A stretch of DNA of 64,000 nt, taken from contig JALGWB010000001.1 in assembly GCA_025774405.1 (NCBI GenBank), positions 16,609 through 80,608 of the forward strand, given 5' to 3'. Of the stretch, positions 27,773-45,539 are shown piece by piece. The notes under the pieces are model-generated. The model searched no databases, had not been told where the DNA came from, and was given only the letters and a program-made list of their open reading frames with translations. The stretch's first letter is position 1; each line of letters starts with the position of its first letter. This DNA comes from a bacterium (GTDB lineage Bacteria; Arandabacterota; Arandabacteria; Arandabacterales; Arandabacteraceae). The translations under genes and the position numbers were made by a program.

Positions 27773-28513
27773 ATGAAGGAAATTCCCCTCACGCAGGACA
27801 AGGTGGCCCTGGTTGATGACCAGGACTACGAATGGCTTAATCAGTGGAAATGGACGTATACTTCTAGGGGCTGCACAGGCTATGCTTATCGGAATGTCTA
27901 TCAAGGCTCCCGATATGTTAGGTGTGTCTTTATGCACCGTTTCATACTGAATCCACCTCCTGGCTTGGAGACAGATCATATCAATGGCAATGGCTTGGAT
28001 AACCGCCGTTGCAATCTGCGTGCGTGCACACATATCCAGAATTCATGGAATAGCCGCAAGCAACAAGGCGCTACGAGTCAGTACAAAGGAGTCTCCTGGG
28101 CACGGAAAAACCAATGCTGGAGGGCGTTTATACATCAAGGTGGTCAGCAGATATCGTTAGGCAACTTTGACTCAGAGGAGGCCGCAGCGCTTGCCTACAA
28201 CTATGCTGCGATCAAACTACGGGGTAGCCATACTCTTCTCAACCTTGTCCCTGACGGCCCTCCTCCATCCCGTCGACTAAAAAAGCGTCCAGGAAAGACT
28301 TCTCGCTATGTAGGAGTCTCCTGGTCTCGCCAACCGCAAGGTTGGCGAGCTGAGATTCGAGTTAAAGGCAAGCTCATATATCTGGGTTGCTTCACCTCAG
28401 AGGATGAGGCAGCGCGGGTCTGGAATGCGGCAGCGCTGAAGTGGAGAGGACCAGGAGCCAAGCAAAACATAGTACAAGGAGAAAGAGATGAATTTCTTGT
28501 TGAGCGAAGTTGA
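27773..28513 (+). CDS. HNH endonuclease with two AP2 DNA-binding domains
   Basis: HNH core HRFILNPPPGLETDHINGNGLDNRRCNLR; AP2 repeats YKGVSWARKNQCWRAFI and YVGVSWSRQPQGWRAEIRVKGKLIYLGCF. Confidence 0.8.
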   Translation: MKEIPLTQDKVALVDDQDYEWLNQWKWTYTSRGCTGYAYRNVYQGSRYVRCVFMHRFILNPPPGLETDHINGNGLDNRRCNLRACTHIQNSWNSRKQQGATSQYKGVSWARKNQCWRAFIHQGGQQISLGNFDSEEAAALAYNYAAIKLRGSHTLLNLVPDGPPPSRRLKKRPGKTSRYVGVSWSRQPQGWRAEIRVKGKLIYLGCFTSEDEAARVWNAAALKWRGPGAKQNIVQGERDEFLVERS

Positions 28514-30155: not shown

Positions 30156-30725
30156 CTACTGCCTCCTTGCCCACCTCGCCGCTGGATCAACCCAGGCTCC
30201 CTTGTTATCCACTGCCAACTGACTCTTCAGTACAGCCAATATCTCGTCCCTCAGCGCAAACCTCTGCTCCACGGGCAAATGTCTGGCCACTATCTCGGTT
30301 ACTTTCTTGGCCATGGTTACAGCCACACTGACAGGAATCAGATAGCGTCGCTCTTGCTCGATCTTGTTCTTGGTCTGAACTAGCTTCCGAATGGTGTCCA
30401 GCAGCAAGGCTAAGGTCCTCAAGTCTCCCTCTTTCTCAGCCTCAACCACCTTCTCCCTCGCTAGGGCAATCTCCCCCCTCAATTCCAACACCTCAGGGTC
30501 TTCGAGCTCCTGGCTTGACAGTTCTACCAAGTCCACAGGCTCGGCTACTGGCAATCGCTTGTCATGCAACCAGCAATAACCGACCCCCTTGTGGTTAGTT
30601 CTGGCTCCTGCCCATCTGTGACAGATGCCGTCTTTGCCTTCTTTGCAAGGCGCACCACAGATTCTGCTCGGATCATTGCGGGCTTTGGCAAGCCCAATTC
30701 TCACTTTGTCTGTTATCATGGGCAT
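30156..30725 (-). CDS. hypothetical protein with CxC...C..H cluster
   Basis: 189-aa ORF contiguous with the previous gene; CGAPCKEGKDGICHRW...GYCWLHD. Confidence 0.5.
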   Translation of the reverse strand: MPMITDKVRIGLAKARNDPSRICGAPCKEGKDGICHRWAGARTNHKGVGYCWLHDKRLPVAEPVDLVELSSQELEDPEVLELRGEIALAREKVVEAEKEGDLRTLALLLDTIRKLVQTKNKIEQERRYLIPVSVAVTMAKKVTEIVARHLPVEQRFALRDEILAVLKSQLAVDNKGAWVDPAARWARRQ

Positions 30726-30800: not shown

Positions 30801-30843
30801 TTGTCAAGCATACTTGACAATTCAGAAGTTTGCTGCTAAGATA
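30801..30843 (+). promoter_or_regulatory. perfect palindrome TTGTCAAG-cata-CTTGACAA whose right half supplies a TTGACA -35, followed 16-17 nt later by TAAGAT; candidate regulated promoter of the terminase operon
   Basis: Palindrome at 30801-30820 read directly, 14 bp upstream of terminase RBS/ATG at 30857. Confidence 0.45.
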
Positions 30844-30856
30844 GAGACGAGAAAGA

Positions 30857-31717
30857 ATGGAGACTAAAGGCATGGAGACATCCTGGGACGCTAAAAGTCC
30901 ACGCGCAGCCCTTGTTGAAACCTTCCTGACTGGCCTTGGCGAGGAGAAGACCAAGCCCAGGCGAGCTCGTCGGGACTTTGCATACTTCATAGAATATGTC
31001 TTTTCTGATCAGAGAGGAAAGCCCCTCAAGCTTCAGTGGTTCCACAGGCAAATGATCAAATATCTGATGTTTGAGAAGAGGGTGCTGGTACTCTTGCCGA
31101 GATCGTGGGGGAAAAGTACCATAGGCTCAGTAGCCTATCCGGCCTGGCGTCTTGGGGTAAACCGAGACCTCAGAATTATCATAGCATCAAATACTATAAC
31201 GCAAGCTAAGTGGTGGTTATCTGAGATCGAGAACTTGATGCTCAAGAATGATAACTTTCACGAGGTATTCGGCTTCATGGTTCCCAAGCCTAGGACGCTT
31301 CGCTGGACTGATACCGAGAAGCGAGTACTTGGGCGTTCTCCTTACGCTATGCACTCCTCACTTCTAGCCACGGGCATTGGTAGTGCATTGCTAGGAGCTA
31401 GAGCGGATGTTATCATTGCCGATGATTGTATCGGTGAAAGAGAGGCCATTTCACCTATCCAGCGCAAGCAAGCCTCGACCTGGTTCTGGAAAGTTCTCCT
31501 CAACACGTTAGAGCCTGATGGCCAGGTGGTCGTCCTCGGCTCTCCCTGGGGGCCCAATGACCTCTACAAGGAAATCCAGGAGAGATGGAAGGATCTCCCG
31601 TCTGAGATGGCTACCTGGCAACGAGGCGACTTCGTTATGCCAGGGGATTATCCCAGCCAAAGTCAACTGCGTAAGATGGAGCGAGAAGGCAGCCTGGACC
31701 CACTGAGGAATGTTTGA
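30857..31717 (+). CDS. terL: terminase large subunit, ATPase domain (separate ORF)
   Basis: Walker A LLPRSWGKST, Walker B ADVIIADD, coupling motif VLGSPWG; ends at a TGA stop with no nuclease domain. Confidence 0.75.
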   Translation: METKGMETSWDAKSPRAALVETFLTGLGEEKTKPRRARRDFAYFIEYVFSDQRGKPLKLQWFHRQMIKYLMFEKRVLVLLPRSWGKSTIGSVAYPAWRLGVNRDLRIIIASNTITQAKWWLSEIENLMLKNDNFHEVFGFMVPKPRTLRWTDTEKRVLGRSPYAMHSSLLATGIGSALLGARADVIIADDCIGEREAISPIQRKQASTWFWKVLLNTLEPDGQVVVLGSPWGPNDLYKEIQERWKDLPSEMATWQRGDFVMPGDYPSQSQLRKMEREGSLDPLRNV

Positions 31718-31779
31718 TAACTTAGCCCCACTAGAACCTAGACCCACTAGAGAATGTTTGATAACTTTGAGGAGGGAAA

Positions 31780-32268
31780 ATGTTTGACGACGTGATAGTA
31801 ACTGACAAGTATGGAGCTCCAACAATGAGAGGGGAAGTGACCAGATATGGTCTCGTAACAAAGAATCCTGATGATGTCAGAGGTGGCCTATACTGCTGGT
31901 ATAAGCTAAAAAAGGCAGATGAATTTCTCCTCGCCTACAGGATCGAGGCAAGTAAAAAGCCCGTAGTTGAGCACACAGATGTGGAGGAGTGGTATCCTGT
32001 TACGCTCAGAGAGTCTTTCAAGATAGCAGGAAAAGGGCGATTCATGTTCGAGGAAGGAGAAGGGCCCCATATCTGGTTCAGACTCTCGACGTTTACCACA
32101 CCTAACAGGCTGAGGGCCAGGATAGCCGCAGTCAGGTCTGGCTGGCAACGATTCAGGCTTGCAGTTAAGTTTCTAAGAAGACGCCTTCGGGAAACCCTGG
32201 AGATTCTGAAGCCTGTCTATCGAAGAAGTGCCCGTCTCACTAATCCCCTCAGATGGCCTGGATATTAG
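31780..32268 (+). CDS. hypothetical basic protein encoded inside the insertion that splits the terminase gene
   Basis: 162-aa ORF with its own GGAGG RBS; no recognisable homing-endonuclease motif. Confidence 0.4.
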   Translation: MFDDVIVTDKYGAPTMRGEVTRYGLVTKNPDDVRGGLYCWYKLKKADEFLLAYRIEASKKPVVEHTDVEEWYPVTLRESFKIAGKGRFMFEEGEGPHIWFRLSTFTTPNRLRARIAAVRSGWQRFRLAVKFLRRRLRETLEILKPVYRRSARLTNPLRWPGY

Positions 32269-33185
32269 GGAGCATCGCCCCGATAGGCTGGGGGGAAGAG
32301 CATTGGAGGTTTATTATCGCTGGCATCTTGATCATACCTGCTCTAACGAACGACTCAGAAGGTAACCAGATCTCGAATTGGCCTGACCGCTGGCCTCTGA
32401 ATCGTCTCCTGGCTAAGAAGCAGGAGATTGGTCCCATCCCTTTCTCTAGCCAGTTTATGCTTGATCCCGTTAACTTGGAACACGCATTCCTCAAACGGGA
32501 ATGGCTGCAATTCTACCTAGATGAAGACCTTCCTGACCTTATCAACTATATCGGAGTGGACCCGTCACCCTCAGGCAGGCAAGGTACTGACTACTTCGCC
32601 CTCGCTGTTCTAGGGGTAGATGTTGCCCATGTGGGATATCTCGAATCTGCCTACCGCATCCAAATCGATCCCCTGGAGCAGGCTCAGCGTATCCGCATTG
32701 AGGCGGGGGTCTGGCATCCAGCTTTAGTCATGGTAGAAGCCGTGGCAGCTCAAGCTCTCTTTACTCGCTATATGCTTCAGGACGTTACCTTTCCTCTCCG
32801 CGAGGGCACGACCAGATTTCCCAAGGAGCTTCGCTATGTCTCAATGTCTCGCTTATTCGCAAGTGGCAGAATCAAGATCAGAGGCAAGCGAAACAGTGAC
32901 GGCGAGATCGTGCCTGCTGACTCTGTTGCCGACTTTGTTGAAGAGTGGGTAGGCTATGCGCCTAAGGGGCCTCGGGACGACACTTTGGATGCTGTCGAGA
33001 AGGCTATTGAGGCCTCTCAGCTAATCTCAGGCAATCCTGTATTCCAGGCATCTCGCCCTGAAAATGTTCCTGTGGGTCGGGGGACGCATCCTGGACTTGC
33101 AAGTGGCGGCAACTTGCTGAGAGGGACCCGAACGCCATTTGGGAACAGGCAGCTGCGCTCGCGGCGATCCCTAGGGAGACGATAG
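32253..33185 (+). CDS. terL: terminase large subunit, linker plus RNase-H-like nuclease domain (separate ORF)
   Basis: FSSQFMLDP linker motif followed by YIGVDPSPSGRQGTDYFALAV (first catalytic Asp region of terminase nucleases). Confidence 0.7.
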   Translation: MAWILGSIAPIGWGEEHWRFIIAGILIIPALTNDSEGNQISNWPDRWPLNRLLAKKQEIGPIPFSSQFMLDPVNLEHAFLKREWLQFYLDEDLPDLINYIGVDPSPSGRQGTDYFALAVLGVDVAHVGYLESAYRIQIDPLEQAQRIRIEAGVWHPALVMVEAVAAQALFTRYMLQDVTFPLREGTTRFPKELRYVSMSRLFASGRIKIRGKRNSDGEIVPADSVADFVEEWVGYAPKGPRDDTLDAVEKAIEASQLISGNPVFQASRPENVPVGRGTHPGLASGGNLLRGTRTPFGNRQLRSRRSLGRR

Positions 33186-35303: not shown

Positions 35304-36781
35304 TGCAAATTGGTCTTTTGCTTAGCTCCAAACACCATGCTGAGATGTTAGCATCTGGTAACAAGACCATGCTCATCAGAGCGAGGCGTTTCTACCGCTA
35401 TGTCCGCATACCAGTCTACCTGCTGGCTGATCAGAAGTGTTATGCCAAGATGGTTCTTGGGTCTCCCCAAAAAATAGACCTGAGTGGGTTTAGAGCATTG
35501 CGGAGTCAACACAGAGTAACTGAAAAGGAAAGGGAGCAACAGTGGCCTGACGAACTAGACTTCTACAGCTATAAAGTCCAGGTTCTCGAAACTTACGATC
35601 CGCCTAAGAAGGTTAAGTTCCCTCCCACCTCTCAGGCTTGGGTACGCCATTGGGAATGGTTAGACCGCCCTCCCAAGGAGCTCCATCTTGAGAAGGTGGC
35701 TGACCTAGAACACTATCATCCGTCCAAGATTCCTGACACAGCACGCGGCAGTGCTATCCTCAGGGACGACGCTCGGCTACTCTTGGCCTACTGGTCGTCA
35801 AAACGGTCAGGCAAGGATGTCAAATATACCTACGACCTCTTGGAGCAGAAGTACACAGCCATCCTCCGTGAACTCGTTCGCAGGAGAGCAGCTCAGTTCA
35901 GTCCTCAGAACTATAAGCCTCATGCTAGAGATCTATTTGACAGAGCTGCGCGAACCCTCCAGTTGGAAGGTATTACTGTCCCACTCAGAAAGAGCTCGCA
36001 TCTGAAAGGACTCACAGCCCTCCAGAATATGACGGATAAGGAACTCCTGGCTCACCATGACCACTTGCATCAAATGTATGCTGAGGGCAAAGTGACTAAG
36101 GAGAGCATCGTCAATGCTCATATCTTTGCAGTCCAGGCAATGAGACATAGGGGCCTATCTCACAAGATCGAGGATGACCTTGACAGGGAGCTCCAGGGAT
36201 CTGCTGCATCACGCCTCGTCCCCTTCGTCATCATAGACTCAATGGTTTGTCAAACTGGCTCTTCTGTCTACGACATCAGGCCCCCTCACGACTGCGACTT
36301 AGTGATACGCAGCGATGAGGAAGACTCCAAGATGACCGCAGCTATCCTTAAGGCCGTTAACCTCCCTCCATCAACCATCCACCGTATTTATGAACCCAGA
36401 GGCCCCTCCTTTGACTATGTGGCCCTCCTGGATTATGTAGCAGTGCCAGTAGCCTGGAAAGGTACCTGGACGAAGAAGAGCATCCGCCCCGAGGACATCC
36501 CCGAACACTCTTGGGCTATCTATCGGCAGTTGCCTCCTGCCGTCTTAGTCCACGACCCCTTCGTCACTCAAAGCAACAATACTTTCTACGTCCGAGATGC
36601 TCGCCGCAACACTGGCATTGAGATCAAGCTCACCAGGCTGTTAGCGGCTAACCTCTCCTTCCGATGGCGCGGGGAGGACGAAGCCATGGCAGGAACGCCG
36701 CTCTTTAAGTCTTTCCTGATTCCACATATACCTCTGAGGAGGGCCAAAGTCGATGAGCCTTTCTTCCGAAGATACTACTGA
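35303..36781 (+). CDS. hypothetical protein (possible minor head / morphogenesis protein)
   Basis: 492-aa ORF following the portal, start overlapping its stop. Confidence 0.45.
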   Translation: MQIGLLLSSKHHAEMLASGNKTMLIRARRFYRYVRIPVYLLADQKCYAKMVLGSPQKIDLSGFRALRSQHRVTEKEREQQWPDELDFYSYKVQVLETYDPPKKVKFPPTSQAWVRHWEWLDRPPKELHLEKVADLEHYHPSKIPDTARGSAILRDDARLLLAYWSSKRSGKDVKYTYDLLEQKYTAILRELVRRRAAQFSPQNYKPHARDLFDRAARTLQLEGITVPLRKSSHLKGLTALQNMTDKELLAHHDHLHQMYAEGKVTKESIVNAHIFAVQAMRHRGLSHKIEDDLDRELQGSAASRLVPFVIIDSMVCQTGSSVYDIRPPHDCDLVIRSDEEDSKMTAAILKAVNLPPSTIHRIYEPRGPSFDYVALLDYVAVPVAWKGTWTKKSIRPEDIPEHSWAIYRQLPPAVLVHDPFVTQSNNTFYVRDARRNTGIEIKLTRLLAANLSFRWRGEDEAMAGTPLFKSFLIPHIPLRRAKVDEPFFRRYY

Positions 36782-37865
36782 GATTCGTGGTCTCCTGTAT
36801 CGAGATAGGCAGACTAAGGTGGCATTAAGGTTTCTCAAAAGGATAAATGTATCCCTAGAAGCCATTAGGCGAAACCTCGCAAGAGCAGAGGAGGCCCTTG
36901 CGGATGAGCCTCTATCTAGCAATGTGAGACTTCTAGCCGGCAAGTTTCTGCTAGCGGAGGAAGACATCCCTCTGGAGGATTTGGGTATTCTGACAAAGAC
37001 TCCAAATCTAGCCAGCATCATCATTCTGAACTACAATACTCTCAAGATCACCTCTGACTGTATCAAAAGCGTTCTAGCCTTGACTGAATACCCTGCGGAG
37101 ATGATAGTAGTTGATAACGGCAGCACGGATGGCAGTGTGGCCTGGCTCAAGAAACAGAATTACCTAACTTTGATATCTAACAAGAATAACCGTGGCTGGA
37201 CTGCCGCAAACAATCAGGGCATCAGAGTCTCCAAAGGGGCCTACTGCCTGTTACTTAACAGCGATACCATTGTGAGGACAAGGGGCTGGCTCAAAGCCAT
37301 GATTCGCCTCGCTCAGCCCCCTGACGTGGCGACGGTCGGGGCCAAGCTTCTTTACCAAGATGGTACCATTCAGCATATAGGGGGCAGCATCCACGACGTC
37401 AATCCCTTCCATCCCTTTGACGGAGCGCCTGCCGACATTCCCGAATCACTTAAAGTCAGAGAAGTCCCTTTCAACACGGGGGCCTGTCTCCTTATCAAGA
37501 AATCCGTCATCGAGCGGGTGGGCTTACTTGACGAGAAATATGTGTTCGGTTATGGTGATGTGGACTATGGCTTGAGGTGTCTTGAGGCAGGATTTAGGAA
37601 TCTCTACTGTCCATCGTCTATCCTAACTCATCTCTGGGCTTACACTCAGCGAAAAACAGGCAAGTGGATTCCATCTGAGAGCTTTGCCAGGTACAAACAG
37701 AAGTGGACTGACAAGACGCCCGCTCTCTCTAAAAAGGTTGACATGGATTTCAGGTGGCCTGATTCTGCACAGTATATCAGAAGGACTGGTCCGGGCAGTC
37801 ATATAGCAACTATTCGCAAGAAGGAGAGCGCTATGACCTGGGGGGCATTAAATGAAAACCAATGA
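36753..37865 (+). CDS. family-2 (GT-A fold) glycosyltransferase
   Basis: IIILNYNT...EMIVVDNGSTDGS...NRGWTAANNQG...LLNSDT, the typical GT2 N-terminal block. Confidence 0.75.
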   Translation: MSLSSEDTTEIRGLLYRDRQTKVALRFLKRINVSLEAIRRNLARAEEALADEPLSSNVRLLAGKFLLAEEDIPLEDLGILTKTPNLASIIILNYNTLKITSDCIKSVLALTEYPAEMIVVDNGSTDGSVAWLKKQNYLTLISNKNNRGWTAANNQGIRVSKGAYCLLLNSDTIVRTRGWLKAMIRLAQPPDVATVGAKLLYQDGTIQHIGGSIHDVNPFHPFDGAPADIPESLKVREVPFNTGACLLIKKSVIERVGLLDEKYVFGYGDVDYGLRCLEAGFRNLYCPSSILTHLWAYTQRKTGKWIPSESFARYKQKWTDKTPALSKKVDMDFRWPDSAQYIRRTGPGSHIATIRKKESAMTWGALNENQ

Positions 37866-38703
37866 GTTTGAGCCTAAAGTCTTTGTCAAGAACGCAAAGG
37901 AATCTGGGCAGCAGGTATCTCTAACCATGGTCACCTTTAATCGGTGGAATCTCACTCAGCAGAGTCTCTCTTCCATTTTCGAGCACACTCATCTGCCATA
38001 CATTCTGACTGTTGTCGATAACGGGAGCTGGGACGAGACGAGGGAAAACCTACAGGAACTCAGGCGGTCTGGTAAGATTAACAGATTGATTCTTCTCCCC
38101 GAGAACCGAGGCATTGACATGGGGAAGAACTTCGGCCTGCGAGCTACCCAGGGCCAGGCTAGCTGGTACTGCTGTATCGACAACGATATCAGAGTCAGTC
38201 CCTACTGGCTCAGCTACCTCTGCTATACATCTACTCTCCCTCGCCTTGGCATAATCGGCTGCAATGTTCAGGGATTTGGCACTCCTGGAGGCCCGAGCTG
38301 GTTTACACCCACGCACTGGAAAACTGTGAAAGGAGTTGTCCTAGACAACTGCCCTAATCCAGGTGGAATCTATGTCATCAGTGCAACTACATTCGAGAAG
38401 CTAGGCTTCTTCGTTGAGAGGGGCCTCTACGGTCTAGGGGACAGCCAATACTACTCACGGGAGTTTCAACATGGCCTCAGAAGCGTCTATGTGAGAAATG
38501 TCGATTGCAGAGAGATACCTGATGAGGACTTTGTGATGGCAGACGGTACGTCGTATAGGACTTTCAAGGCGACTTCTCACAACTCTATGCGTCAGAAGGT
38601 CAGAGAAATGGCATCTCAAGGCATTGATATCCACCCAAAGCATTACGAGACTAGAGTAACGGCCCAAGAAGTTGAGAAGTATACCTGGACGCCAGAATCA
38701 TGA
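37852..38703 (+). CDS. family-2 glycosyltransferase
   Basis: VSLTMVTFNRWNL...LTVVDNGSWDET...ENRGIDMGKNFG. Confidence 0.7.
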   Translation: MKTNEFEPKVFVKNAKESGQQVSLTMVTFNRWNLTQQSLSSIFEHTHLPYILTVVDNGSWDETRENLQELRRSGKINRLILLPENRGIDMGKNFGLRATQGQASWYCCIDNDIRVSPYWLSYLCYTSTLPRLGIIGCNVQGFGTPGGPSWFTPTHWKTVKGVVLDNCPNPGGIYVISATTFEKLGFFVERGLYGLGDSQYYSREFQHGLRSVYVRNVDCREIPDEDFVMADGTSYRTFKATSHNSMRQKVREMASQGIDIHPKHYETRVTAQEVEKYTWTPES

Positions 38704-38729
38704 CCTTAGATACTTAGGGGTCCCCAACT

Positions 38730-39206
38730 ATGATTTTAGATGCAGGATCAGGCATGGCATCGAACCCAAGAGCCAACATACTCATGGACAAATATCTTCA
38801 AGGAGACAGTACCTCTCGTATAACGGGCACTCTTATGATTCGCAAAGGACAGACTATGATTTGTGGTGACCTTGAGGCCATGCCATTTCTGGATAAGTCC
38901 TTCGACATTGTTATTTGCTCTCAGACGCTCGAACATGTTGATAATCCTGAGAAAGCCTGTGCTGAGTTGGTGCGGGTAGGAAGGAGTGGTTTCATAACTG
39001 CGCCAAACGAGACAGTAGAAAGGCGTCGATATGAGCGTCGCGAGAAGCTCTATCACAAGTGGCTTATCAAGCAACGGGGCACTCACCTCGACTTCTATCT
39101 CAGAAGTCTCGTTCCAAGCCTCCCGATGATGGAGCATCCTAGCCAGGGCGTGGATATGGCTTGGAAAGGGAGCTTCACTTGGTCAGTGTTCAGAGAATCG
39201 CCATGA
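38730..39206 (+). CDS. class I SAM-dependent methyltransferase (Methyltransf_11-like)
   Basis: LEAMPFLDKSFDIVICSQTLEHVDNPEKACAEL post-motif II/III block. Confidence 0.6.
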   Translation: MILDAGSGMASNPRANILMDKYLQGDSTSRITGTLMIRKGQTMICGDLEAMPFLDKSFDIVICSQTLEHVDNPEKACAELVRVGRSGFITAPNETVERRRYERREKLYHKWLIKQRGTHLDFYLRSLVPSLPMMEHPSQGVDMAWKGSFTWSVFRESP

Positions 39207-40195
39207 CAAGACTCCCCAGAGTCCTATTCGTTAGCATAGCTCCGTCTCTCCACACGGAGTTCTGGGCTGCTGGCTTTATGAAGGCCCTTCGCAAAGTTGC
39301 CGTTCCACTGGCTTTCCCTTTCAGGAAAATGGCTCATGACCACGGGGCAGCCTACATGAACGAGACGCTAGTGGAAACTGCTCTGGAGTTTCGTCCTGAC
39401 CTGATCTTTATTAGGAAGGGGGAAAGCATTCTCGGCTCTAGCATTAAGACGCTCAGGGATTCCCTGCCTGCTTATATCATCTACTATTGTGGGGACTTCC
39501 GTCTCAATCCAGTCTCCTTCATCGTCGATATTGGACGATACGCAGATTGTACCATTTTCAACAACGAGGACGAGAAGGTTGCTGATAGATATCAGGTTGC
39601 GGGTGTGAGACATGTGGGTCCTTGGTGGGACGGTGGAATTGACCCAGAAGTCTTTTGCCCGCAAGACGTACCCAGAGCCTGGGACCTAGCCTTCATGGGC
39701 ACTAACGTCCCCTTGCCTCACAGGGGCTATCAGGTACGTCGCCAACTACTGGAGGCTATCGTCGAGAGTAACTACTCTCTTCACATCTTCGGTGGGGCTG
39801 AAGGCTGGAAGTACCTCCACACGAATACCCACCCGTTCGTTTATGGCCCTGCTTTCGCTAAGGCCTGTTCTCAATCGCGTATCACTCTGGGCGTCAATGG
39901 AGTGAACGACATGTATCTGTATGCTTCCTGGCAACGTACTTTCAAGTCAATGGCCAGTGGAGCGTTTCACCTTACTCACTATGTCCCTGGACTGGAGACG
40001 TTCTTTGAGAACCGCAAGCATCTGGTCTGGTTCATCTCCATACCTGAGGCGATGAGTCTCATTGCTTACTATCTCACTCACGACGAGGAACGTGAAGAAA
40101 TAGCCATGGCAGGCCGACAGGAGGTTCTTGCTCACTTCACTTGGGACGATGCTGTCGCAAGGCTTATGAGGATTTGGCAAAGTGACTGCTGTTGA
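39161..40195 (+). CDS. CgeB-like / GT1-type glycosyltransferase
   Basis: C-terminal FKSMASGAFHLTHYVPGLETFFENRKHLVWFISIPEAMSLIAYYLTHDEEREEIAMAGRQEVLAHFTWD parallels the CgeB/DUF3880 spore-glycosylation family. Confidence 0.55.
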   Translation: MERELHLVSVQRIAMTRLPRVLFVSIAPSLHTEFWAAGFMKALRKVAVPLAFPFRKMAHDHGAAYMNETLVETALEFRPDLIFIRKGESILGSSIKTLRDSLPAYIIYYCGDFRLNPVSFIVDIGRYADCTIFNNEDEKVADRYQVAGVRHVGPWWDGGIDPEVFCPQDVPRAWDLAFMGTNVPLPHRGYQVRRQLLEAIVESNYSLHIFGGAEGWKYLHTNTHPFVYGPAFAKACSQSRITLGVNGVNDMYLYASWQRTFKSMASGAFHLTHYVPGLETFFENRKHLVWFISIPEAMSLIAYYLTHDEEREEIAMAGRQEVLAHFTWDDAVARLMRIWQSDCC

Positions 40196-40865
40196 ACAAT
40201 ACCGTAGGGACTTCGCCACGTACATGAGCCTTCCTGGAGCTGAGAGGTGTAGACTCCAAATGTATCCTCGTCTTGAGGATAAGACCGCATCAACTCCCCT
40301 GGATGCCTATTACTTTCGACAAGATACCTGGGCGTTCAAGCGGATAGTAGACCTCAAGCCTAGCAGCATAGTAGATGTAGGATCGACTGCGCTCCTCGTG
40401 GGAATTCTTGCCCAGATGTTTCCTACAACGAGTATCGATATAAGGCCCATTCCAGTATCTCTTCCTGGATTAACATGTAGGCAAGGCTCGATCACTAATC
40501 TCCCCTTCAAAGACGCCTCAGTTGAGCTCCTGAGCAGCCTATGTGTGATAGAGCATATAGGTCTAGGTCGATACGGCGACAAGCTCGATCCGCTCGGTAG
40601 CATCAAAGCCTGCAAGGAGATCTCGAGGGTGCTCAAGCCTGGTGGACATTTCATAATGAGCACTCAAGTGAGTCATACCCCTGCCCTCTGCTTCAATGCG
40701 CACCGAATCTTCACGCAGGCCCAAGTTCTGGATATGTTGCCAGCCTTCTCGGTAACGGATGAGGCGTTCTTCTTCCCTCGGCCTGGCAATGCAGAAGACA
40801 TAGAGGCACTCACGGGTTTCAGGTTCTGCTTCTGGTGCGTAGACTTGGTTAAGGAGTCAGCATGA
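40182..40865 (+). CDS. SAM-dependent methyltransferase (DUF268-like)
   Basis: VDVGSTALLVGILAQ (motif I-like) ... LKPGGHFIMST. Confidence 0.55.
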   Translation: MTAVEQYRRDFATYMSLPGAERCRLQMYPRLEDKTASTPLDAYYFRQDTWAFKRIVDLKPSSIVDVGSTALLVGILAQMFPTTSIDIRPIPVSLPGLTCRQGSITNLPFKDASVELLSSLCVIEHIGLGRYGDKLDPLGSIKACKEISRVLKPGGHFIMSTQVSHTPALCFNAHRIFTQAQVLDMLPAFSVTDEAFFFPRPGNAEDIEALTGFRFCFWCVDLVKESA

Positions 40866-41665
40866 CGCTCTCGGTTGTAACTCCTAGCTACATTAACAAC
40901 CAGCAACGAGCTGATTGGGCCAGAGACTCTCTGGCTTCCCTCAGGGAAACTATCGGCGACGGCTACTTACATGTTGTGGTGCTTGACAAATCCCTTGAAT
41001 GGAATATTATTGCTCAGGCAATCTATAACCAGCCTAATGTAATGCTCATGCAGCGTCCCAAGCCTCTTGGCAATACTTCAGCTTTGCTAAAGGCCGTGAA
41101 GGAATCTCGCAAGTTGGGAGCAGATCTCTGTTTTGTCCATATGGACGATAACATCTATGTCCCCGAATTCGGACCTCTTCTCAGATATGCCCAGGACGCT
41201 TTCAGCAACGATAGGGAGTTGCAAGAAGTGCTCTTTGTTGGCTACCCGATCCTTATAAAGAGGCATAGCAAACCACTTCTTGGCAATCGCACAGGCCTAA
41301 CTATCGAGGAGAATCAAGTCTCTTTCGATACCATACAGTTGCACCCTACTCGCTGTACGGATTATACTCTCTGGTGGTCTTATTTTCATGACCGAATGGT
41401 GGACGGGCGATTTTGGGCAGTTGTCATGTGGATGGCTCTCTACCGAGCTGAGTTCTTGGAGAGTGTCCTTACACTTGCCCCTACGGGCCGGACGCTTGGT
41501 CAGGTTGAATCTTACTACAGAAACAGAAGCAACTGGGAGAGACTATCCCATCGCTTTCCAGGAAAGCTCGGTTACATAAACATGCAGTTCGGCGGTTTGG
41601 AGATGCACCATCATAGTCAGGAATGGTGTGAGATGATCCGTTTTCCTAATACGCCTGTGAGGTGA
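40862..41665 (+). CDS. GT-A-like glycosyltransferase (DxD HMDDN)
   Basis: LSVVTPSYINNQQR...VHMDDNIYVP layout resembles GT-A enzymes. Confidence 0.45.
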   Translation: MTLSVVTPSYINNQQRADWARDSLASLRETIGDGYLHVVVLDKSLEWNIIAQAIYNQPNVMLMQRPKPLGNTSALLKAVKESRKLGADLCFVHMDDNIYVPEFGPLLRYAQDAFSNDRELQEVLFVGYPILIKRHSKPLLGNRTGLTIEENQVSFDTIQLHPTRCTDYTLWWSYFHDRMVDGRFWAVVMWMALYRAEFLESVLTLAPTGRTLGQVESYYRNRSNWERLSHRFPGKLGYINMQFGGLEMHHHSQEWCEMIRFPNTPVR

Positions 41666-41701
41666 GACATATAGGAGAAGACTTACCTGTGAGGTGAAGG
41701 A

Positions 41702-42340
41702 ATGACTTACAGAGAGAATCCAGAACTAGGTCAGGACATGGTTAAGTTTGCCTTTCATCGTTGGCAGCAAGGAGAATATCTCTTAGAGCCTCCTCAGCGT
41801 CAAATCTACGAGAATATTGCGGTCAGAGCGAAAGGCAAGACGGTCTGTGATATAGGCTCTGGAGCGGGACTGGGAACTACTATCCTAGCACAAAGGGCTC
41901 AGTCAGTTATTGGCATCGAGAAGGTTGCGTCTTCCGTCAGGTTCTCTAGGAAATGTCATCCCCTAACAAATGTGCAGTTTCTGAATGAGGATATAGGGAA
42001 GTGCTCTCTTTCTGACAACAGTTTCGATGTAGTGGTGGCGGTTGAGGTGATAGAGCATATCGCAAACTACCAGGCAGCACTGGATCAGATGGCTCGAATT
42101 CTGAAAGAGTCTGGAACCCTATACATCTCGTCTCCTAACAGGAATCAAGATATTAGAGGAGGAGCGTCAGGCGCAGGCCCGCCAAGGAACAAGTATCATG
42201 TTCGAGAGTGGACAGCCGAGGAGTTTCGGCATATTCTTCTCTCGCGCTTCAGTCAGGTTAGGCTTTCTGACTATACCCTTGACCCTTGCCTAGACTCCTG
42301 TACGCGAGTCTCGCCAGTTATCGCGATCTGTCGAATATGA
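41702..42340 (+). CDS. class I SAM-dependent methyltransferase
   Basis: Motif I VCDIGSGAGLGT, then FDVVVAVEVIEHIANYQAAL...LKESGTLYISSPN. Confidence 0.7.
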   Translation: MTYRENPELGQDMVKFAFHRWQQGEYLLEPPQRQIYENIAVRAKGKTVCDIGSGAGLGTTILAQRAQSVIGIEKVASSVRFSRKCHPLTNVQFLNEDIGKCSLSDNSFDVVVAVEVIEHIANYQAALDQMARILKESGTLYISSPNRNQDIRGGASGAGPPRNKYHVREWTAEEFRHILLSRFSQVRLSDYTLDPCLDSCTRVSPVIAICRI

Positions 42341-43005
42341 GAACTCTGTGGATCGTTATTCCAGCAAAAGATGAGGCTGCTACTATTGCAGACCTAGTTG
42401 CCGAAGCCGCCCACTACGGAACGGTGTTAGTAGTTACCAGTGGGCCTTCAGACGATACTGGCCCAAGAGCTGCCAGCGCGGGAGCCCAGGTAATCTACAA
42501 CGGCCAGAGCATTGCAGGAAAGATAGTCACTGGCTGGCAGAGAGCCCTCGACAACAATGCGACACGAGTCATAGTCATGGATGCAGGCGGATCGCATAGG
42601 CCATCAGATATCCCCCGTCTCCTGGCAGCAGAGGCTGACATCGTAATAGGCAGTCGGTTTGTGGCTGGAGGCCAATATCATGGCAGATCGTGGCGCAGGG
42701 TATGCAGTCAAGTCATGGCTCTGCTCTGCAACCTAGCCCAACCAGGTAAACAGGTCCATGACTGGTCTAGCGGCTTCAGGTGTTATTCGGTAGAAGCAAT
42801 TGGGCAGCTACTAGCCGTCCATTATAAATCTGATATGCACGCTTGGCAAATCGAGGTGCTAGGCTGGGCTAGGCGCTTGCACCTTTCAGTTGAGGAAGTC
42901 CCTATACAGTATACTGCTGGGCACTCGTCTCTCTCCTGGGATGGGGCTCTCAGGGCTCTCAATATATTGTTAGACATCTTGCTCCGCAGGTGGGTAGTCG
43001 GATGA
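42286..43005 (+). CDS. family-2 glycosyltransferase, DPM1/GtrB-like (polyprenyl-phosphate sugar transferase type)
   Basis: LWIVIPAKDEAATI...VVTSGPSDDTG...RVIVMDAGGSHRPSDIPRLL...DIVIGSRF. Confidence 0.7.
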   Translation: MPRLLYASLASYRDLSNMRTLWIVIPAKDEAATIADLVAEAAHYGTVLVVTSGPSDDTGPRAASAGAQVIYNGQSIAGKIVTGWQRALDNNATRVIVMDAGGSHRPSDIPRLLAAEADIVIGSRFVAGGQYHGRSWRRVCSQVMALLCNLAQPGKQVHDWSSGFRCYSVEAIGQLLAVHYKSDMHAWQIEVLGWARRLHLSVEEVPIQYTAGHSSLSWDGALRALNILLDILLRRWVVG

Positions 43006-44075
43006 TATTCTACCTTGATACATACATTACTGACGAGCCTCTCCATCCTGCGTTTGTTTGGCCAAACAGGGAGATCAGGAACTCCTGTCCCCAGTATAAG
43101 ATGCCACGGAGAATAGATATCACAAAGTACACGCTTGCGAGTTATAAGATGATTCCGTGGACACATGTTGTCATCGCATACGATGTTGCTGATAAGGATG
43201 ATGAAAGCACGTTCCTGGACTTTGTGCAAGAAGTTTTCCCAGACGCAGATGTTAGTCGGCCTCGCTCCTCTAACCAGAAGACGTACAGGGCAAGAGTGGA
43301 GCAAGTTTGCAGTTTTGAGGATGACTTCATCTTTTATGCACCTAACAACGATCATCCCCTCATAGCAAGCAATCTCAATCACCTGCCCAAGTTACTCAAA
43401 AAGGCTTCAAGGTTCTCACAAAACTACCCATTTGTCTCCGTTGTCTACTCGCACTTCAGTGAGTTCGTCAACGCGCCTGTCGTTGGGAGTCCTTTCTACA
43501 GACAGTTCTCTAGCGACTCACGCATAGTAGAAGACGACGAGATTGCTACGAGCTTTGTGAGATTCAATGGCGACAACTCTTCTATCCAGATCGTCAATAG
43601 GAATCTCCTGCAACACTGGTTTTGCTCACATGATCTCGGTGATGCCAGAATCATCAGAGCAGAAGATGTTCGCAGGTTTCTTCCAACTCCTAACCAGTTG
43701 ATGATAGTGCCCAAGAAGGAGCTCTGTGCGCACTTTGACGGCTACTCGCATACAACTGGTATCACTAAGATCAGTCCTGACCAGATTCCTCCTCTATTCA
43801 TTCCAACAGGGTTCTTCGACAGCTCGATTCGGATCGCCTACGGATATCCAGAATACCGAGATGGCTGGGTAAACATAAACCCTTCTGCGAGGGATTTCAG
43901 TTTCCGCGACCGAAAGACGGGCACAGATCTGAAAATTGGTCTTCAGGACATACCTCTTTTCTGGAAGAGCAGAATCGCAGAAATAGACATCAATGTGAAT
44001 GCCGACCTCGAGCGAATTAAGGAGGGCAGAGAGAAATACTTTGAGACAGTTCGTAACCCCTGGAGGAAAGCCTAG
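42990..44075 (+). CDS. hypothetical protein inside the glycosylation cluster
   Basis: 361-aa ORF, no motif recognised. Confidence 0.45.
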   Translation: MGSRMIFYLDTYITDEPLHPAFVWPNREIRNSCPQYKMPRRIDITKYTLASYKMIPWTHVVIAYDVADKDDESTFLDFVQEVFPDADVSRPRSSNQKTYRARVEQVCSFEDDFIFYAPNNDHPLIASNLNHLPKLLKKASRFSQNYPFVSVVYSHFSEFVNAPVVGSPFYRQFSSDSRIVEDDEIATSFVRFNGDNSSIQIVNRNLLQHWFCSHDLGDARIIRAEDVRRFLPTPNQLMIVPKKELCAHFDGYSHTTGITKISPDQIPPLFIPTGFFDSSIRIAYGYPEYRDGWVNINPSARDFSFRDRKTGTDLKIGLQDIPLFWKSRIAEIDINVNADLERIKEGREKYFETVRNPWRKA

Positions 44076-44650
44076 TGATCAAGTTGCATATAGGCTGTGG
44101 CCCCAGAGTGCTAAAGGGATGGATAAATATCGATCTCAAGTTCACTCCTTACCAGGCGTACCTGAAATACTACACTGACAAGTACTACCCAGAGTCCGCT
44201 AGGGGCGACAAGTCAGATTTTCTTGCACTAGATGTGTCTAGGCAGCCTTTGCCCTTTCCTGACAATTCGGTAGATGTCGTCTTCCATGAGGACTTCCTTG
44301 AGCACCTGAACCAGCGTAGCCAAGTTCTCTTCCTAGCTGATTCTCTCCGAGTCTTGAAGCCAGACTCCATTCATCGAATTGATACGCCTAACCTGTTAGC
44401 ATCGATGCGCGATCACTCTAATTTCTCCCTTGGCTTTCAGGGTGTCTATGTCCATGAGTGGGATAAGTCCAAGCATCTCAATGTATTGACCCCTAGCTCG
44501 CTTGAAGAGATGGCTCTTATGGTTGGATATTCAACAGTAGTCTTCACAGGTAGAAACCAAAGTGCGTCGCCTCTGATTCCGCCTGAGTATCGCCCTGATC
44601 CAAGAGATCGGCCCGAGAACGGAAACATCTTTGCAGATTTGGTTGCTTAG
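44075..44650 (+). CDS. SAM-dependent methyltransferase
   Basis: HIGCGPRVLKGWINID (motif I) ... LRVLKPDSIHRIDTPN. Confidence 0.55.
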   Translation: MIKLHIGCGPRVLKGWINIDLKFTPYQAYLKYYTDKYYPESARGDKSDFLALDVSRQPLPFPDNSVDVVFHEDFLEHLNQRSQVLFLADSLRVLKPDSIHRIDTPNLLASMRDHSNFSLGFQGVYVHEWDKSKHLNVLTPSSLEEMALMVGYSTVVFTGRNQSASPLIPPEYRPDPRDRPENGNIFADLVA

Positions 44651-45539
44651 GAGTAGCGCCTTGAGGATATTTGTTCTTCCTGTGTCGTCTCAGTTTCAAC
44701 CTCCTCCCATGAAGATTCTCTATCCTCCTCACAACAAGCGAGACTACGGCATTGAGCAAGACTTCGCTCAGCATCTCACAGAGCCTTCTAGTGACTGGAC
44801 GATCGCAGAGTCTTCTGACGTTGCTGATTGGCATTACCTTCCTATCTACTGGACACGTTACCATGTGACACATAACTATGCCAAGACTGGCCTAGAAGCA
44901 CTTCAGCGTGAAGTTGCCCGAAGAATCATTGACGACAAAAGGACCTTTACAATTTGCCAGTATGATGATGGGCCTTTGGTAGACCTTGGTAGAACTGTGC
45001 AGTTTCTAGGGTCTCGCAAAGGGGAAGAAGGCATCGACGTCCCTCTTCTTTCCTATCCTCATAAGCTCCCTGCAGTTGATCCCCCTAAACAGTGGTTAGC
45101 GTCTTTTGCAGGGAGACTCCGAACGCACGAGGTTCGCGCAGACATGCAGCGTGTTCTGGGGCCTCGCCAGGACATTGACATTCAGGACACACGCAAAACC
45201 AGTAGATTCTTTGTAGACTTGATCCTTCGGTCGTATGTTTCCCTCTGTCCCAGGGGATGGGGTGGCTCGTCTTTTAGGTTTTATGAATCTATGCAACTGG
45301 GAGTAGTGCCCCTTCTCATTGGCAGCATAGACACCCGCCCCTTCAAACGTTTCCTGAACTGGAGTATAATGAGTCTCTATGCTCGCACGGCCGAGGAAGC
45401 AAATGTGTCCCTCGACTCCCACACTCTGACAGAATTGCTAGAGATGGGGCGATGTGCCAAGAAAGCCTGGCATCAAGATCTATCGTTTGGGCACTGGCAC
45501 AAGTATGTGTTTCAGGAATTGGAGGCTCTATGGCATTAA
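44631..45539 (+). CDS. exostosin-like (GT47-type) glycosyltransferase
   Basis: SLCPRGWGGSSFRFYESMQLGVVPLLIG closely matches the exostosin C-terminal catalytic block. Confidence 0.6.
   Translation: MQIWLLRSSALRIFVLPVSSQFQPPPMKILYPPHNKRDYGIEQDFAQHLTEPSSDWTIAESSDVADWHYLPIYWTRYHVTHNYAKTGLEALQREVARRIIDDKRTFTICQYDDGPLVDLGRTVQFLGSRKGEEGIDVPLLSYPHKLPAVDPPKQWLASFAGRLRTHEVRADMQRVLGPRQDIDIQDTRKTSRFFVDLILRSYVSLCPRGWGGSSFRFYESMQLGVVPLLIGSIDTRPFKRFLNWSIMSLYARTAEEANVSLDSHTLTELLEMGRCAKKAWHQDLSFGHWHKYVFQELEALWH

What the first reader, a model, noticed from the sequence alone, without database searches (positions are those of the whole stretch)
31690..32290. Large terminase gene split into ATPase and nuclease ORFs by a 535-bp insertion bounded by direct repeats and carrying its own ORF
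The ATPase ORF ends at a TGA (31715-31717) right after the coupling region. The nuclease ORF resumes in another frame at 32253 with the normal inter-domain linker (FSSQFMLDP) and RNaseH-like motifs. Between them is a 162-aa ORF with its own GGAGG RBS. The junction shows GAATGTTTGATAACTT twice (31708-31723 and 31752-31767) and CCCACTAGA twice, and the insert ORF itself starts ATGTTTGA. This looks like either a mobile insertion (group I intron or free-standing endonuclease-like element with a duplicated junction) or a terminase that works as two polypeptides. The inserted protein has no recognisable LAGLIDADG, GIY-YIG or HNH motif, so it may be a new intron- or insertion-encoded protein.
Basis: seen in the sequence. 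Interest (0 to 1): 0.65.

Follow-up and report, generated by a model that had tools for sequence, protein, structure and literature searches.

The report
Two-gene phage terminase with cargo slot
This phage encodes its DNA-packaging enzyme (large terminase) as two separate genes, as its relatives do, and the 162-codon gene between them is changeable cargo in the gap, not an intron or mobile element that broke the gene.

Summary
The sequence features are real: an ATPase ORF (30857-31717), a 162-aa ORF with a strong ribosome-binding site (31780-32268), a nuclease ORF (32253-33185), and a 31-nt direct repeat. Both repeat copies lie on the left side of the insert, so they do not bound it.

The insert did not split the gene. 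Three related phage contigs (L001, L003, L018) have the ATPase stop and the nuclease start 1-43 nt apart with nothing between. Of the 150 nearest protein-cluster representatives, 24 are stand-alone nuclease genes starting at the same residue. Other relatives carry different genes in the gap: a PAPS reductase, an MT-A70 methyltransferase plus a 77-aa ORF, a 33-aa ORF, or ORF162 homologues (L007, L017).

Rfam finds no intron here. The same search finds the group I intron in the split terminase of phage K1E. ORF162 matches no endonuclease family or any other family, and its codon usage is like the phage's other genes.

Best reading: an ancestral two-polypeptide large terminase, broken just after the helix that follows ATPase motif III. 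The gap between the genes serves as an accessory-gene slot. How the two halves assemble is inferred, not tested. I found no paper describing this intron-less arrangement.

The parts
30814..30842 (+). Sigma-70-like promoter match (TTGACA-17-TAAGAT) upstream of the ATPase gene. It is paired with a divergent match at 30807-30779 on the - strand.
   Evidence: This is a consensus match only. No promoter-like or terminator-like site was found on the + strand inside the insert.
30857..31717 (+). terL-N, the large-terminase ATPase subunit (286 aa). It has Walker A PRSWGKST, Walker B DVIIADD and motif III GSP. A 40-aa tail (DLPSEMATWQ...YP...LDPLRNV) is conserved in the nearest relatives.
   Evidence: phrog_38 E=2.5e-48, residues 30-248. 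NF033889 E=9.4e-20. AF2 pLDDT 77.7, best fold hits TerL 8dgc, T4 gp17 and HK97 TerL. Tail conserved in L001, L003, L005, L007 and L018.
31693..31723 (+). Direct repeat copy 1. It is the true 3' end of the ATPase gene (LDPLRNV, stop) plus 6 nt.
31737..31767 (+). Direct repeat copy 2 (87% identical). It would read LDPLENV-stop and lies just before the ORF162 ribosome-binding site.
   Evidence: L018 has a parallel 17-nt duplication of its ATPase stop region.
31707..32295 (+). Variable slot. About 590 bp here has no counterpart in L003, L001 or L018. Homology to relatives stops near 31706 and resumes near 32296-32316.
   Evidence: DNA alignments.
31769..31776 (+). Shine-Dalgarno sequence GAGGAGGG for ORF162.
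   Evidence: Read from the sequence.
31780..32268 (+). ORF162, a cargo gene of unknown function. The first ~105 residues are predicted beta-rich at low confidence, followed by a long basic C-terminal helix (108-151).
   Evidence: Codon-usage score is +0.22 bits/codon in frame against -0.6 and -0.5 out of frame. Homologues in the same slot: L007 ORF140 (E=4e-7) and the L017 C-terminus (E=6e-7). No family match. AF2 pLDDT 44.
32253..33185 (+). terL-C, the large-terminase nuclease subunit (310 aa as an ORF). The ATG at 32253 overlaps the end of ORF162 by 16 nt. Residues 22-62 are the beta-strand, the WPDRWP motif and a helix, which lie between ATPase motif III and the nuclease domain in one-piece relatives. 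The RNase H-like nuclease follows, with conserved acidic residues in GVDPS, VEA and RDDTLDA.
   Evidence: phrog_38 E=1.1e-27, residues 18-257 on profile positions 468-705. Terminase_6C. Invariant columns.
32305..32318 (+). Ancestral start region of the nuclease gene: GGAGG (32305-32309), then 6 nt, then ATC (32316). This ATC aligns with the ATG or GTG start of every stand-alone relative.

Best explanation
The window comes from a large uncultured tailed phage (contig of at least 87 kb). Its large terminase belongs to the T7-gp19-like lineage and is encoded as two genes: terL-N (ATPase) and terL-C (nuclease).

The break is ancestral to a whole clade. It falls at one fixed place, just after the helix that follows ATPase motif III and just before the beta-strand/WPExxP/helix segment.

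The space between the two genes is an accessory-gene slot whose content differs between relatives. It can be empty, or hold an ORF162-family gene, a PAPS reductase, a DNA methyltransferase or a tiny membrane-like ORF. ORF162 is this phage's cargo.

Inferred expression: ATPase, ORF162 and nuclease are co-transcribed from the promoter-like site upstream of the ATPase gene. ORF162 starts at its own strong ribosome-binding site. The ancestral nuclease ATG has become ATC here, so the nuclease gene is translated from ATG 32253, coupled to termination of ORF162.

Inferred function: the two polypeptides assemble non-covalently into the packaging enzyme. The nuclease subunit probably docks by supplying in trans the strand and lid elements that single-chain terminases have in cis.

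Shown: the two-gene state, its conservation, the variable cargo, and the absence of an intron or endonuclease. Inferred: the co-transcription, the start codon used, and the way the halves assemble.
For: 1. The halves map end to end on terminase profiles. The ATPase covers phrog_38 positions 266-473 and the nuclease covers 468-705. On NF033889 they cover 1-195 and 229-273.
2. Relatives have adjacent halves and no insert. L001 reads TAA-5 nt-ATG. L003 reads TGAAATG. L018 has a 43-nt gap.
3. Relatives carry other cargo. L005/L004 have a PAPS_reduct gene, E=1.7e-23. L014 has a 77-aa ORF plus MT-A70. L012 has a 33-aa ORF. L007 has ORF140 plus ORF111.
4. ORF162 homologues sit in the same slot in L007 and L017.
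5. Among the 150 nearest 50%-identity representatives, 24 are stand-alone nucleases starting at the same beta-strand and 106 are one-piece proteins. On a rough tree the stand-alone state clusters: 11 state changes against 23 with shuffled labels.
6. The frame offset between the halves differs among loci (+1, +2), and cargo intervenes in several. A conserved frameshift or bypass fusion is therefore excluded.
7. There is no intron in the junction or in six relatives. The positive control is Intron_gpI at 63.6 bits in K1E.
8. Catalytic motifs are intact in both halves. The ATPase core folds confidently as a terminase ATPase.
9. ORF162 has the phage's own codon usage, and the insert has no sharp GC break.
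Against: - No experiment shows that the two polypeptides form an active terminase.
- The docking mechanism is inference. The ATPase tail is predicted only at pLDDT 38-54.
- The ATPase tail's resemblance to the strand/WPExxP/helix segment is not significant (best E=0.25), even though BLAST alignments run through it.
- All relatives are metagenomic contigs with no host and no proof of viability.
- The start codon of the nuclease gene is not established (ATG 32253 or ATC 32316).
- The ATPase-end duplication is unexplained.
- The direction of change (gain or loss of ORF162) cannot be rooted firmly.
Confidence: 0.8

Rival explanations
1. A mobile group I or II intron, or an intron-like element carrying ORF162, interrupted a one-piece terminase gene. 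RNA splicing restores it.
For: The layout terL-N | ORF | terL-C looks like phage K1E gp40A/40.5/40B, where a group I intron is present, and like the Jug phages (PMC12880540).
Against: There is no Rfam intron match even at E<=10 across 31300-32600, and none at gathering score in the whole window. Relatives have stop and start codons 1-5 nt apart, which leaves no room for an intron. The ATPase tail after the break point is conserved as protein in five relatives, so it is coding. The intergenic RNA is less structured than shuffled sequence (z=+1.66).
Confidence: 0.02
2. ORF162 is a selfish free-standing element, a new kind of homing endonuclease or similar. It invaded the pre-existing gap between the two terminase genes and spreads between related phages. 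The duplicated ATPase end is its insertion scar.
For: ORF162 is present in some close relatives and absent from others at one site (window, L017 and L007 against L003, L001 and L018). The ATPase 3' end is duplicated 44 nt apart at its left edge, with a parallel in L018. Terminase genes are favoured homing targets: relatives carry P-loop inteins, and an HNH-AP2 endonuclease gene lies 2.3 kb upstream.
Against: ORF162 matches no nuclease motif or family. Only three family members are known, all in this slot. Its codon usage is native. It has no promoter or terminator of its own. The repeats do not flank it. The other cargoes are ordinary enzymes, not endonucleases.
Confidence: 0.1
3. ORF162 is a terminase accessory factor, such as a small-terminase-like DNA-recognition subunit or an adaptor that holds the two halves together.
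For: It sits between the halves and overlaps the nuclease start, so it could be made in step with them. No recognisable small terminase gene lies next to terL-N. It has a long basic C-terminal helix.
Against: It is absent from L001, L003 and L018, whose halves are otherwise the same. Unrelated enzymes replace it in L005 and L014. It matches no TerS family.
Confidence: 0.07
4. The terminase is a broken pseudogene or an assembly or frameshift artefact in a defective element.
For: The data are metagenomic only, and the ancestral nuclease start codon is ATC here.
Against: The same split occurs in at least eight independent contigs from different samples. Both halves are full-length, conserved and keep their catalytic residues. 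The sequence is identical to another copy of the contig over 10.5 kb. The 590-bp difference is a whole gene, not a frameshift.
Confidence: 0.01

Closest known systems
Phage K1E gp40A / gp40.5 / gp40B, and Lelliottia phage phD2B: T7-like large terminase split by a group I intron that carries a homing endonuclease
   Same: It is the same broad terminase lineage (T7 gp19-like). The gene order terL-N | small ORF | terL-C is also the same (PMC4246154).
   Different: K1E has a bona fide Intron_gpI (63.6 bits) and an annotated homing endonuclease. Its break comes after about 405 residues, later in the protein. The window has no intron and no endonuclease. Its break comes right after ATPase motif III, and relatives are split with nothing in between.
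Jug (jumbo gut) phages: terL cut into two or three pieces by group I introns
   Same: The terminase is annotated as several ORFs, with inserts that often encode proteins (PMC12880540).
   Different: Those are intron-mediated and vary between near-identical genomes. Here the split is intron-less and conserved at one position across relatives down to about 30% identity.
Intein-interrupted large terminases (for example cyanophage Mic1 and actinobacteriophages)
   Same: Relatives of this phage carry inteins in the P-loop of the same ATPase gene (L001, L005, L018). The literature is PMC7156551 and bioRxiv 10.1101/2025.01.02.630785.
   Different: Inteins are in-frame and spliced at the protein level. 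The window's three ORFs are in three different frames with stop codons. Neither half has room for split-intein fragments: L012's ATPase ends right at the break, and the nucleases start directly with terminase sequence.
Engineered separation of the T4 gp17 ATPase and nuclease domains
   Same: The ATPase and nuclease are on separate polypeptides.
   Different: The laboratory constructs cut at the hinge between the domains. As I recall, they keep the partial activities but not packaging. The natural split here lies upstream of the last strand and lid segment, so the nuclease subunit carries part of what is normally the ATPase domain.
Phage 'morons' and plasticity slots between conserved genes
   Same: Cargo at one fixed junction between conserved genes is present, absent or replaced among relatives.
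   Different: Classic morons bring their own promoter and terminator and often differ in base composition. Neither is seen here. The slot lies inside what is normally a single essential gene.

Membership tests
Large terminase (TerL), T7 gp19-like lineage (phrog_38 / NCBIfam NF033889) | N-terminal ASCE ATPase with Walker A, Walker B and motif III | tested here: met
   PRSWGKST, DVIIADD and GSP are present in ORF 30857-31717. phrog_38 E=2.5e-48. The AF2 model matches TerL structures 8dgc, 2o0h and 6z6d.
Large terminase (TerL), T7 gp19-like lineage (phrog_38 / NCBIfam NF033889) | C-terminal RNase H-like nuclease with conserved acidic residues | tested here: met
   Terminase_6C spans 100-253 with E=0.0062, below Pfam's cut-off. 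phrog_38 E=1.1e-27. D82, E141, D221, D222 and D225 are invariant among 12 stand-alone homologues.
Large terminase (TerL), T7 gp19-like lineage (phrog_38 / NCBIfam NF033889) | Both activities on one polypeptide | tested here: not met
   There are two genes in different frames with a gene between them. At least eight related contigs show the same split.
Large terminase (TerL), T7 gp19-like lineage (phrog_38 / NCBIfam NF033889) | Reaches the NCBIfam equivalog cut-off (150 bits) | tested here: not met
   The scores are 70.9 and 21.5 bits. It is a distant relative, not an equivalog of T7 gp19.
Group I/II intron-interrupted gene | Catalytic intron RNA between the exons | tested here: not met
   There is no intron hit at E<=10 in 31300-32600 and none in the whole window. 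The positive control in K1E scores 63.6 bits.
Group I/II intron-interrupted gene | Joining the exons restores one continuous reading frame matching uninterrupted homologues | tested here: not met
   The nearest relatives are themselves two genes with adjacent stop and start codons.
Homing endonuclease gene (LAGLIDADG, GIY-YIG, HNH, PD-(D/E)XK, EDxHD) | A recognisable nuclease domain in the inserted ORF | tested here: not met
   Pfam, PHROGs, NCBIfam and PADLOC give no hit for ORF162. The AF2 model is too poor for a fold search.
Intein / split intein | In-frame insertion with splicing blocks, or N- and C-intein fragments at the broken ends | tested here: not met
   The three ORFs use three frames with stops. 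There is no Hint or Intein match in the window proteins. The nuclease genes begin directly with terminase sequence.
Moron-type accessory cassette | Presence/absence or replacement at a fixed site between conserved genes in related phages | tested here: met
   Six slot states were seen across ten related contigs.
Moron-type accessory cassette | Own promoter and terminator, and deviant base composition | tested here: not met
   There is no + strand promoter-like or terminator-like site in 31700-32300. GC is 0.445-0.55 against 0.47-0.57 in the flanks. Codon usage is native.

The most novel reading that the evidence does not exclude
A sizeable clade of tailed phages runs its genome-packaging motor with the ATPase and the headful/cos nuclease on two separate polypeptides. 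The cut lies inside the ATPase fold, before its last strand and lid, so the nuclease subunit must complete the ATPase in trans. The resulting gap inside an essential late operon has become a preferred landing site for accessory genes such as DNA-modification enzymes and orphan ORFs like ORF162. If this is undescribed, it provides a natural system to ask whether covalent coupling of motor and nuclease is needed for packaging and for timing of the terminal cut. It also allows a test of whether splitting affects recognition by terminase-sensing defences such as Avs.
Probability: 0.45. Interest if true: 0.65.

Novelty: new variant of a known kind. Interest (0 to 1): 0.5.

Why it matters
Large terminase is treated as the universal single-chain hallmark of tailed phages. 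It is used as a marker gene, as a phylogenetic anchor, and as the target of bacterial sensors.

- **Annotation.** An intron-less two-gene form conserved across a clade means half-size terL calls in metagenomes are not always fragments, introns or errors. Pipelines that expect one ~500-aa protein will mis-score such phages.
- **Mechanism.** It offers a natural test of whether the ATPase and nuclease must be covalently linked.
- **Accessory genes.** The variable slot is a defined place to look for new phage accessory genes.
- **This finding.** The 'new intron-encoded protein' idea should be dropped. ORF162 is a lineage-restricted cargo gene of unknown function.

Tried and rejected
- **Intron search.** Rfam with permissive thresholds over the junction, and at gathering score over the whole window and six related loci, found nothing. 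The method was validated on K1E.
- **Identity of ORF162.** These searches found only itself, P0159 (the L007 homologue), or nothing: Pfam, PHROGs, NCBIfam, PADLOC, tblastn against 50,697 phage records, a pattern scan of IMG/VR, and single-sequence and two-sequence profile searches of the 5.8-billion-protein set. The single-sequence AF2 model was unusable (pLDDT 44), so I ran no fold search on it.
- **Duplicated lid segment.** I tested whether both halves carry a duplicated strand/WPExxP/helix segment. BLAST alignments to P0002 and P0004 overlap by 22 residues. The L007 tail aligns to phrog_38 positions up to 489. However, an HMM of five tails gives no significant hit in 105 one-piece terminases (best E=0.25; only 6 of the top 25 land on the WPE segment), and AF2 leaves the tail at low confidence. 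I treat this as unproven.
- **Frameshift, bypass or split-intein fusion.** Rejected, because frame offsets differ between loci, cargo genes intervene, and there is no room for intein fragments.
- **RNA structure in the repeat region.** None (z=+1.66).
- **Genome collection scan for prophage relatives or a host.** No hits.
- **Literature.** Seven full-text searches found intron, intein and bypass cases, but no description of an intron-less two-gene TerL. The library is incomplete, so this is absence of evidence only.
- **Remnant of an ATPase tail.** A possible remnant (…EHRPD…) in the ATPase frame at 32270-32300 was considered and dropped as unconvincing.
Full report
**1. What is in the sequence**

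The region holds three + strand ORFs in three different frames.
- The first ORF is 286 aa (30857-31717, stop TGA 31715-31717).
- The second is 162 aa (31780-32268), preceded by GAGGAGGG at 31769-31776.
- The third is 310 aa (32253-33185). Its ATG overlaps the end of the 162-aa ORF by 16 nt.

The first ORF is a large-terminase ATPase.
- It carries Walker A PRSWGKST, Walker B DVIIADD and motif III GSP.
- It matches phrog_38 at E=2.5e-48 and NCBIfam termin_lrg_T7 at E=9.4e-20.
- Its AF2 model (pLDDT 77.7) matches the TerL of phage PhiV-1, T4 gp17 and HK97 TerL.

The third ORF is the RNase H-like nuclease half.
- It matches phrog_38 at E=1.1e-27 and Terminase_6C.
- Its acidic catalytic residues are conserved.

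On the phrog_38 profile the two halves abut. The ATPase covers positions 266-473 and the nuclease covers 468-705.

The direct repeat is real and longer than reported. It is 31 nt at 31693-31723 and 31737-31767, with 27/31 identical and a spacing of 44 nt. Both copies lie upstream of ORF162, so they do not bound the insert. Copy 1 is the true end of the ATPase gene (LDPLRNV-stop). Copy 2 would read LDPLENV-stop.

The window is identical to JGI contig Ga0366832_1000270 over the 10.5 kb compared.

**2. Is it an intron or a homing element?**

A permissive Rfam scan of 31300-32600 gave only three chance-level hits and no intron. The whole window has no Rfam hit at gathering score. Six related loci also have none.

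As a positive control I scanned the split terminase of phage K1E (gp40A, gp40.5 homing endonuclease, gp40B). The same search found Intron_gpI at 63.6 bits, E=1.4e-15.

ORF162 matches nothing in Pfam, PHROGs, NCBIfam or PADLOC. It also has no hit in 50,697 phage genomes. The RNA around the repeats is less structured than shuffled sequence (z=+1.66).

**3. What relatives look like**

One-piece relatives exist: P0002-P0005, 459-508 aa, about 33-41% identical to the ATPase ORF. The closest relatives, however, are split in the same place.

| Locus | Relation to the window | Between the ATPase and nuclease genes |
|---|---|---|
| L001 | ATPase 58-61% identical, carries a mini-intein | Nothing: stop TAA, 5 nt, then ATG-GCT-GGC-ATC (MAGILIVPAL...) |
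| L003 | nuclease ~69% identical | Nothing: TGAAATG |
| L018 | ATPase carries an intein | 43-nt gap only |
| L005/L004 | ATPase carries a LAGLIDADG intein | A PAPS-reductase gene (E=1.7e-23) |
| L014 | ATPase carries an intein | A 77-aa ORF and an MT-A70 DNA methyltransferase |
| L012 | ATPase ends right after ...DLYAELASKWSNK | A 33-aa hydrophobic ORF |
| L007 | 91-kb viral contig, nuclease 63% identical | ORF140 and ORF111 |
| L017 | nuclease 72% identical, only 90 nt of upstream sequence | The end of an ORF162-like gene, 1 nt before the nuclease ATG |

ORF140 of L007 is homologous to ORF162 (BLASTP E=4e-7). The ORF162-like C-terminus in L017 matches at E=6e-7.

DNA alignments place the edges of the window's extra DNA at about 31707 and about 32295.

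An exhaustive HMMER search with the nuclease half gave a census of the 150 nearest 50%-identity representatives.
- 24 are stand-alone nuclease proteins (222-357 aa) that begin at the same beta-strand just before the WPExxP motif.
- 106 are one-piece terminases.
- 20 are fragments or are split elsewhere.

On a rough neighbour-joining tree the stand-alone state is clustered. It needs 11 state changes, against 23 with shuffled labels. The window falls in an all-split clade with P0010, P0011, P0012, P0023 and P0025.

**4. Interpretation**

The split predates ORF162 and does not depend on it.

Fusion by frameshifting or ribosomal bypass is not tenable. The frame offset between the halves differs from locus to locus, and whole genes intervene in several loci.

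Split inteins are excluded. The nuclease genes start directly with terminase sequence, and L012's ATPase stops at the break point.

The gap behaves as an accessory-gene slot with at least six different states. ORF162 is a real gene.
- Its in-frame codon score is +0.22 bits/codon, against -0.6 and -0.5 out of frame. Other genes of this phage score 0.24-0.42.
- It has two homologues in the same slot in related contigs.

Its function is unknown. The AF2 model is poor (pLDDT 44) apart from a long basic C-terminal helix at 108-151. It has no promoter or terminator of its own, and its GC content is not sharply different from the flanks. It is therefore expressed as part of the terminase operon.

**5. 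How it most likely works (inferred)**

Transcription probably starts at the promoter-like site at 30814-30842.

The codon that aligns with the ATG or GTG start of every stand-alone relative is ATC in the window (32316). It is still preceded by GGAGG at 32305-32309. The reading frame is open back to ATG 32253, which overlaps the ORF162 stop. The nuclease is therefore probably translated by coupling to ORF162, which adds 21 N-terminal residues. Weak initiation at ATC is the alternative.

The break lies after the helix that follows motif III. The nuclease subunit therefore carries the strand, the WPExxP motif and the helix that in one-piece terminases lie between ATPase motif III and the nuclease domain. 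From general knowledge of terminase structures (T4 gp17, P74-26), I infer that this segment completes the ATPase fold and lid in trans and holds the two subunits together.

In the window's subclade the ATPase also has a conserved 40-residue tail (…MATWQ…YP…L…LDP…), seen in the window, L003, L007, L001, L005 and L018. It may be a decayed copy of that segment, but the evidence is not significant.

**6. Comparison with what is known**

Published terminase interruptions that I could find are of three kinds.
- Group I introns with or without homing endonucleases: K1E and phD2B (PMC4246154) and Jug phages (PMC12880540).
- Inteins: Mic1 (PMC7156551) and actinobacteriophages (bioRxiv 10.1101/2025.01.02.630785).
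- Proposed translational bypass: Hau3 (PMC10732093).

Seven full-text searches found no description of an intron-less, conserved two-gene large terminase. Two PHROG families of half-size 'terminase large subunit' proteins (phrog_4758, phrog_5573) match the window's halves. This hints that half-size genes are already present in deposited phage genomes.

I therefore rate this as a new variant of a known kind, with moderate interest. The specific claim of a new intron- or insertion-encoded protein is not supported.

**7. Open points**

The duplicated ATPase 3' end is unexplained. L018 has a parallel: a 17-nt repeat at 94% identity, spaced 41 nt, that includes the stop codon and ends at the nuclease start. 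This suggests a scar of unequal recombination at the left edge of the slot, but I did not test it.

No host was identified. There were no hits in 185,579 species genomes, and the window has no tRNA genes.

Noticed in passing
L001 3820-5247; L005 2058-3995; L018 1467-2756; L014 1137-3032: The ATPase genes of four relatives carry inteins. L001 has a mini-intein and L005 a LAGLIDADG intein, both directly after the Walker A GK. L018 has a precomputed Intein_splicing hit on record. L014 has an intein after about residue 153. The window's ATPase has none.
   Followed up: partly
L018 2744-2760 and 2785-2801: A 17-nt direct repeat (94% identical, spacing 41) duplicates the end of the ATPase gene, including its stop codon, and ends at the nuclease GTG start. 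It parallels the 31-nt repeat in the window.
   Followed up: partly
window 32305-32318: The start codon shared by all stand-alone nuclease relatives is ATC in this phage and is still preceded by GGAGG. The ORF is instead open from ATG 32253, inside the end of ORF162.
   Followed up: partly
window 47919-51950: A 1343-aa ORF combines an ATP-dependent DNA ligase domain, a Dam-type (D12) adenine methyltransferase and an XkdF-like prohead protease domain. A 641-aa ORF in L018 (5446-7371) has precomputed Pfam hits on record for the methyltransferase plus the protease.
   Followed up: no
window 52314-54992: An 892-aa ORF has a Phage_capsid_4 major-capsid domain at residues 586-888. Zinc-ribbon-like motifs and a low-complexity repeat region precede it.
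   Followed up: no
window 36753-46984: At least four glycosyltransferase genes lie inside the head/packaging gene block, one of them fused to a methyltransferase domain. L001 also has glycosyltransferase, radical SAM/SPASM and methyltransferase genes around its terminase.
   Followed up: no
window 27773-28513: A free-standing HNH + AP2 endonuclease gene lies 2.3 kb upstream of the terminase ATPase gene.
   Followed up: no
window 30156-30725 (- strand); L007 2545-3177 (- strand): A conserved 189-210-aa protein with a Cys/His-rich N-terminus and a predicted coiled C-terminus is transcribed divergently from the ATPase gene in both phages. It matches no family. It could be a small-terminase candidate, but I did not test this.
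   Followed up: no
L014 3022-3255: The 77-aa ORF between the terminase halves of L014 is built from internal DNA repeats, including a 79-nt unit at 77% identity.
   Followed up: no
proteins P0015, P0026, P0040, P0042, P0142: Some relatives of the nuclease half are 900-1300 aa long, with the nuclease region at the far C-terminus. They are probably terminases with several inteins or fusions.
   Followed up: no
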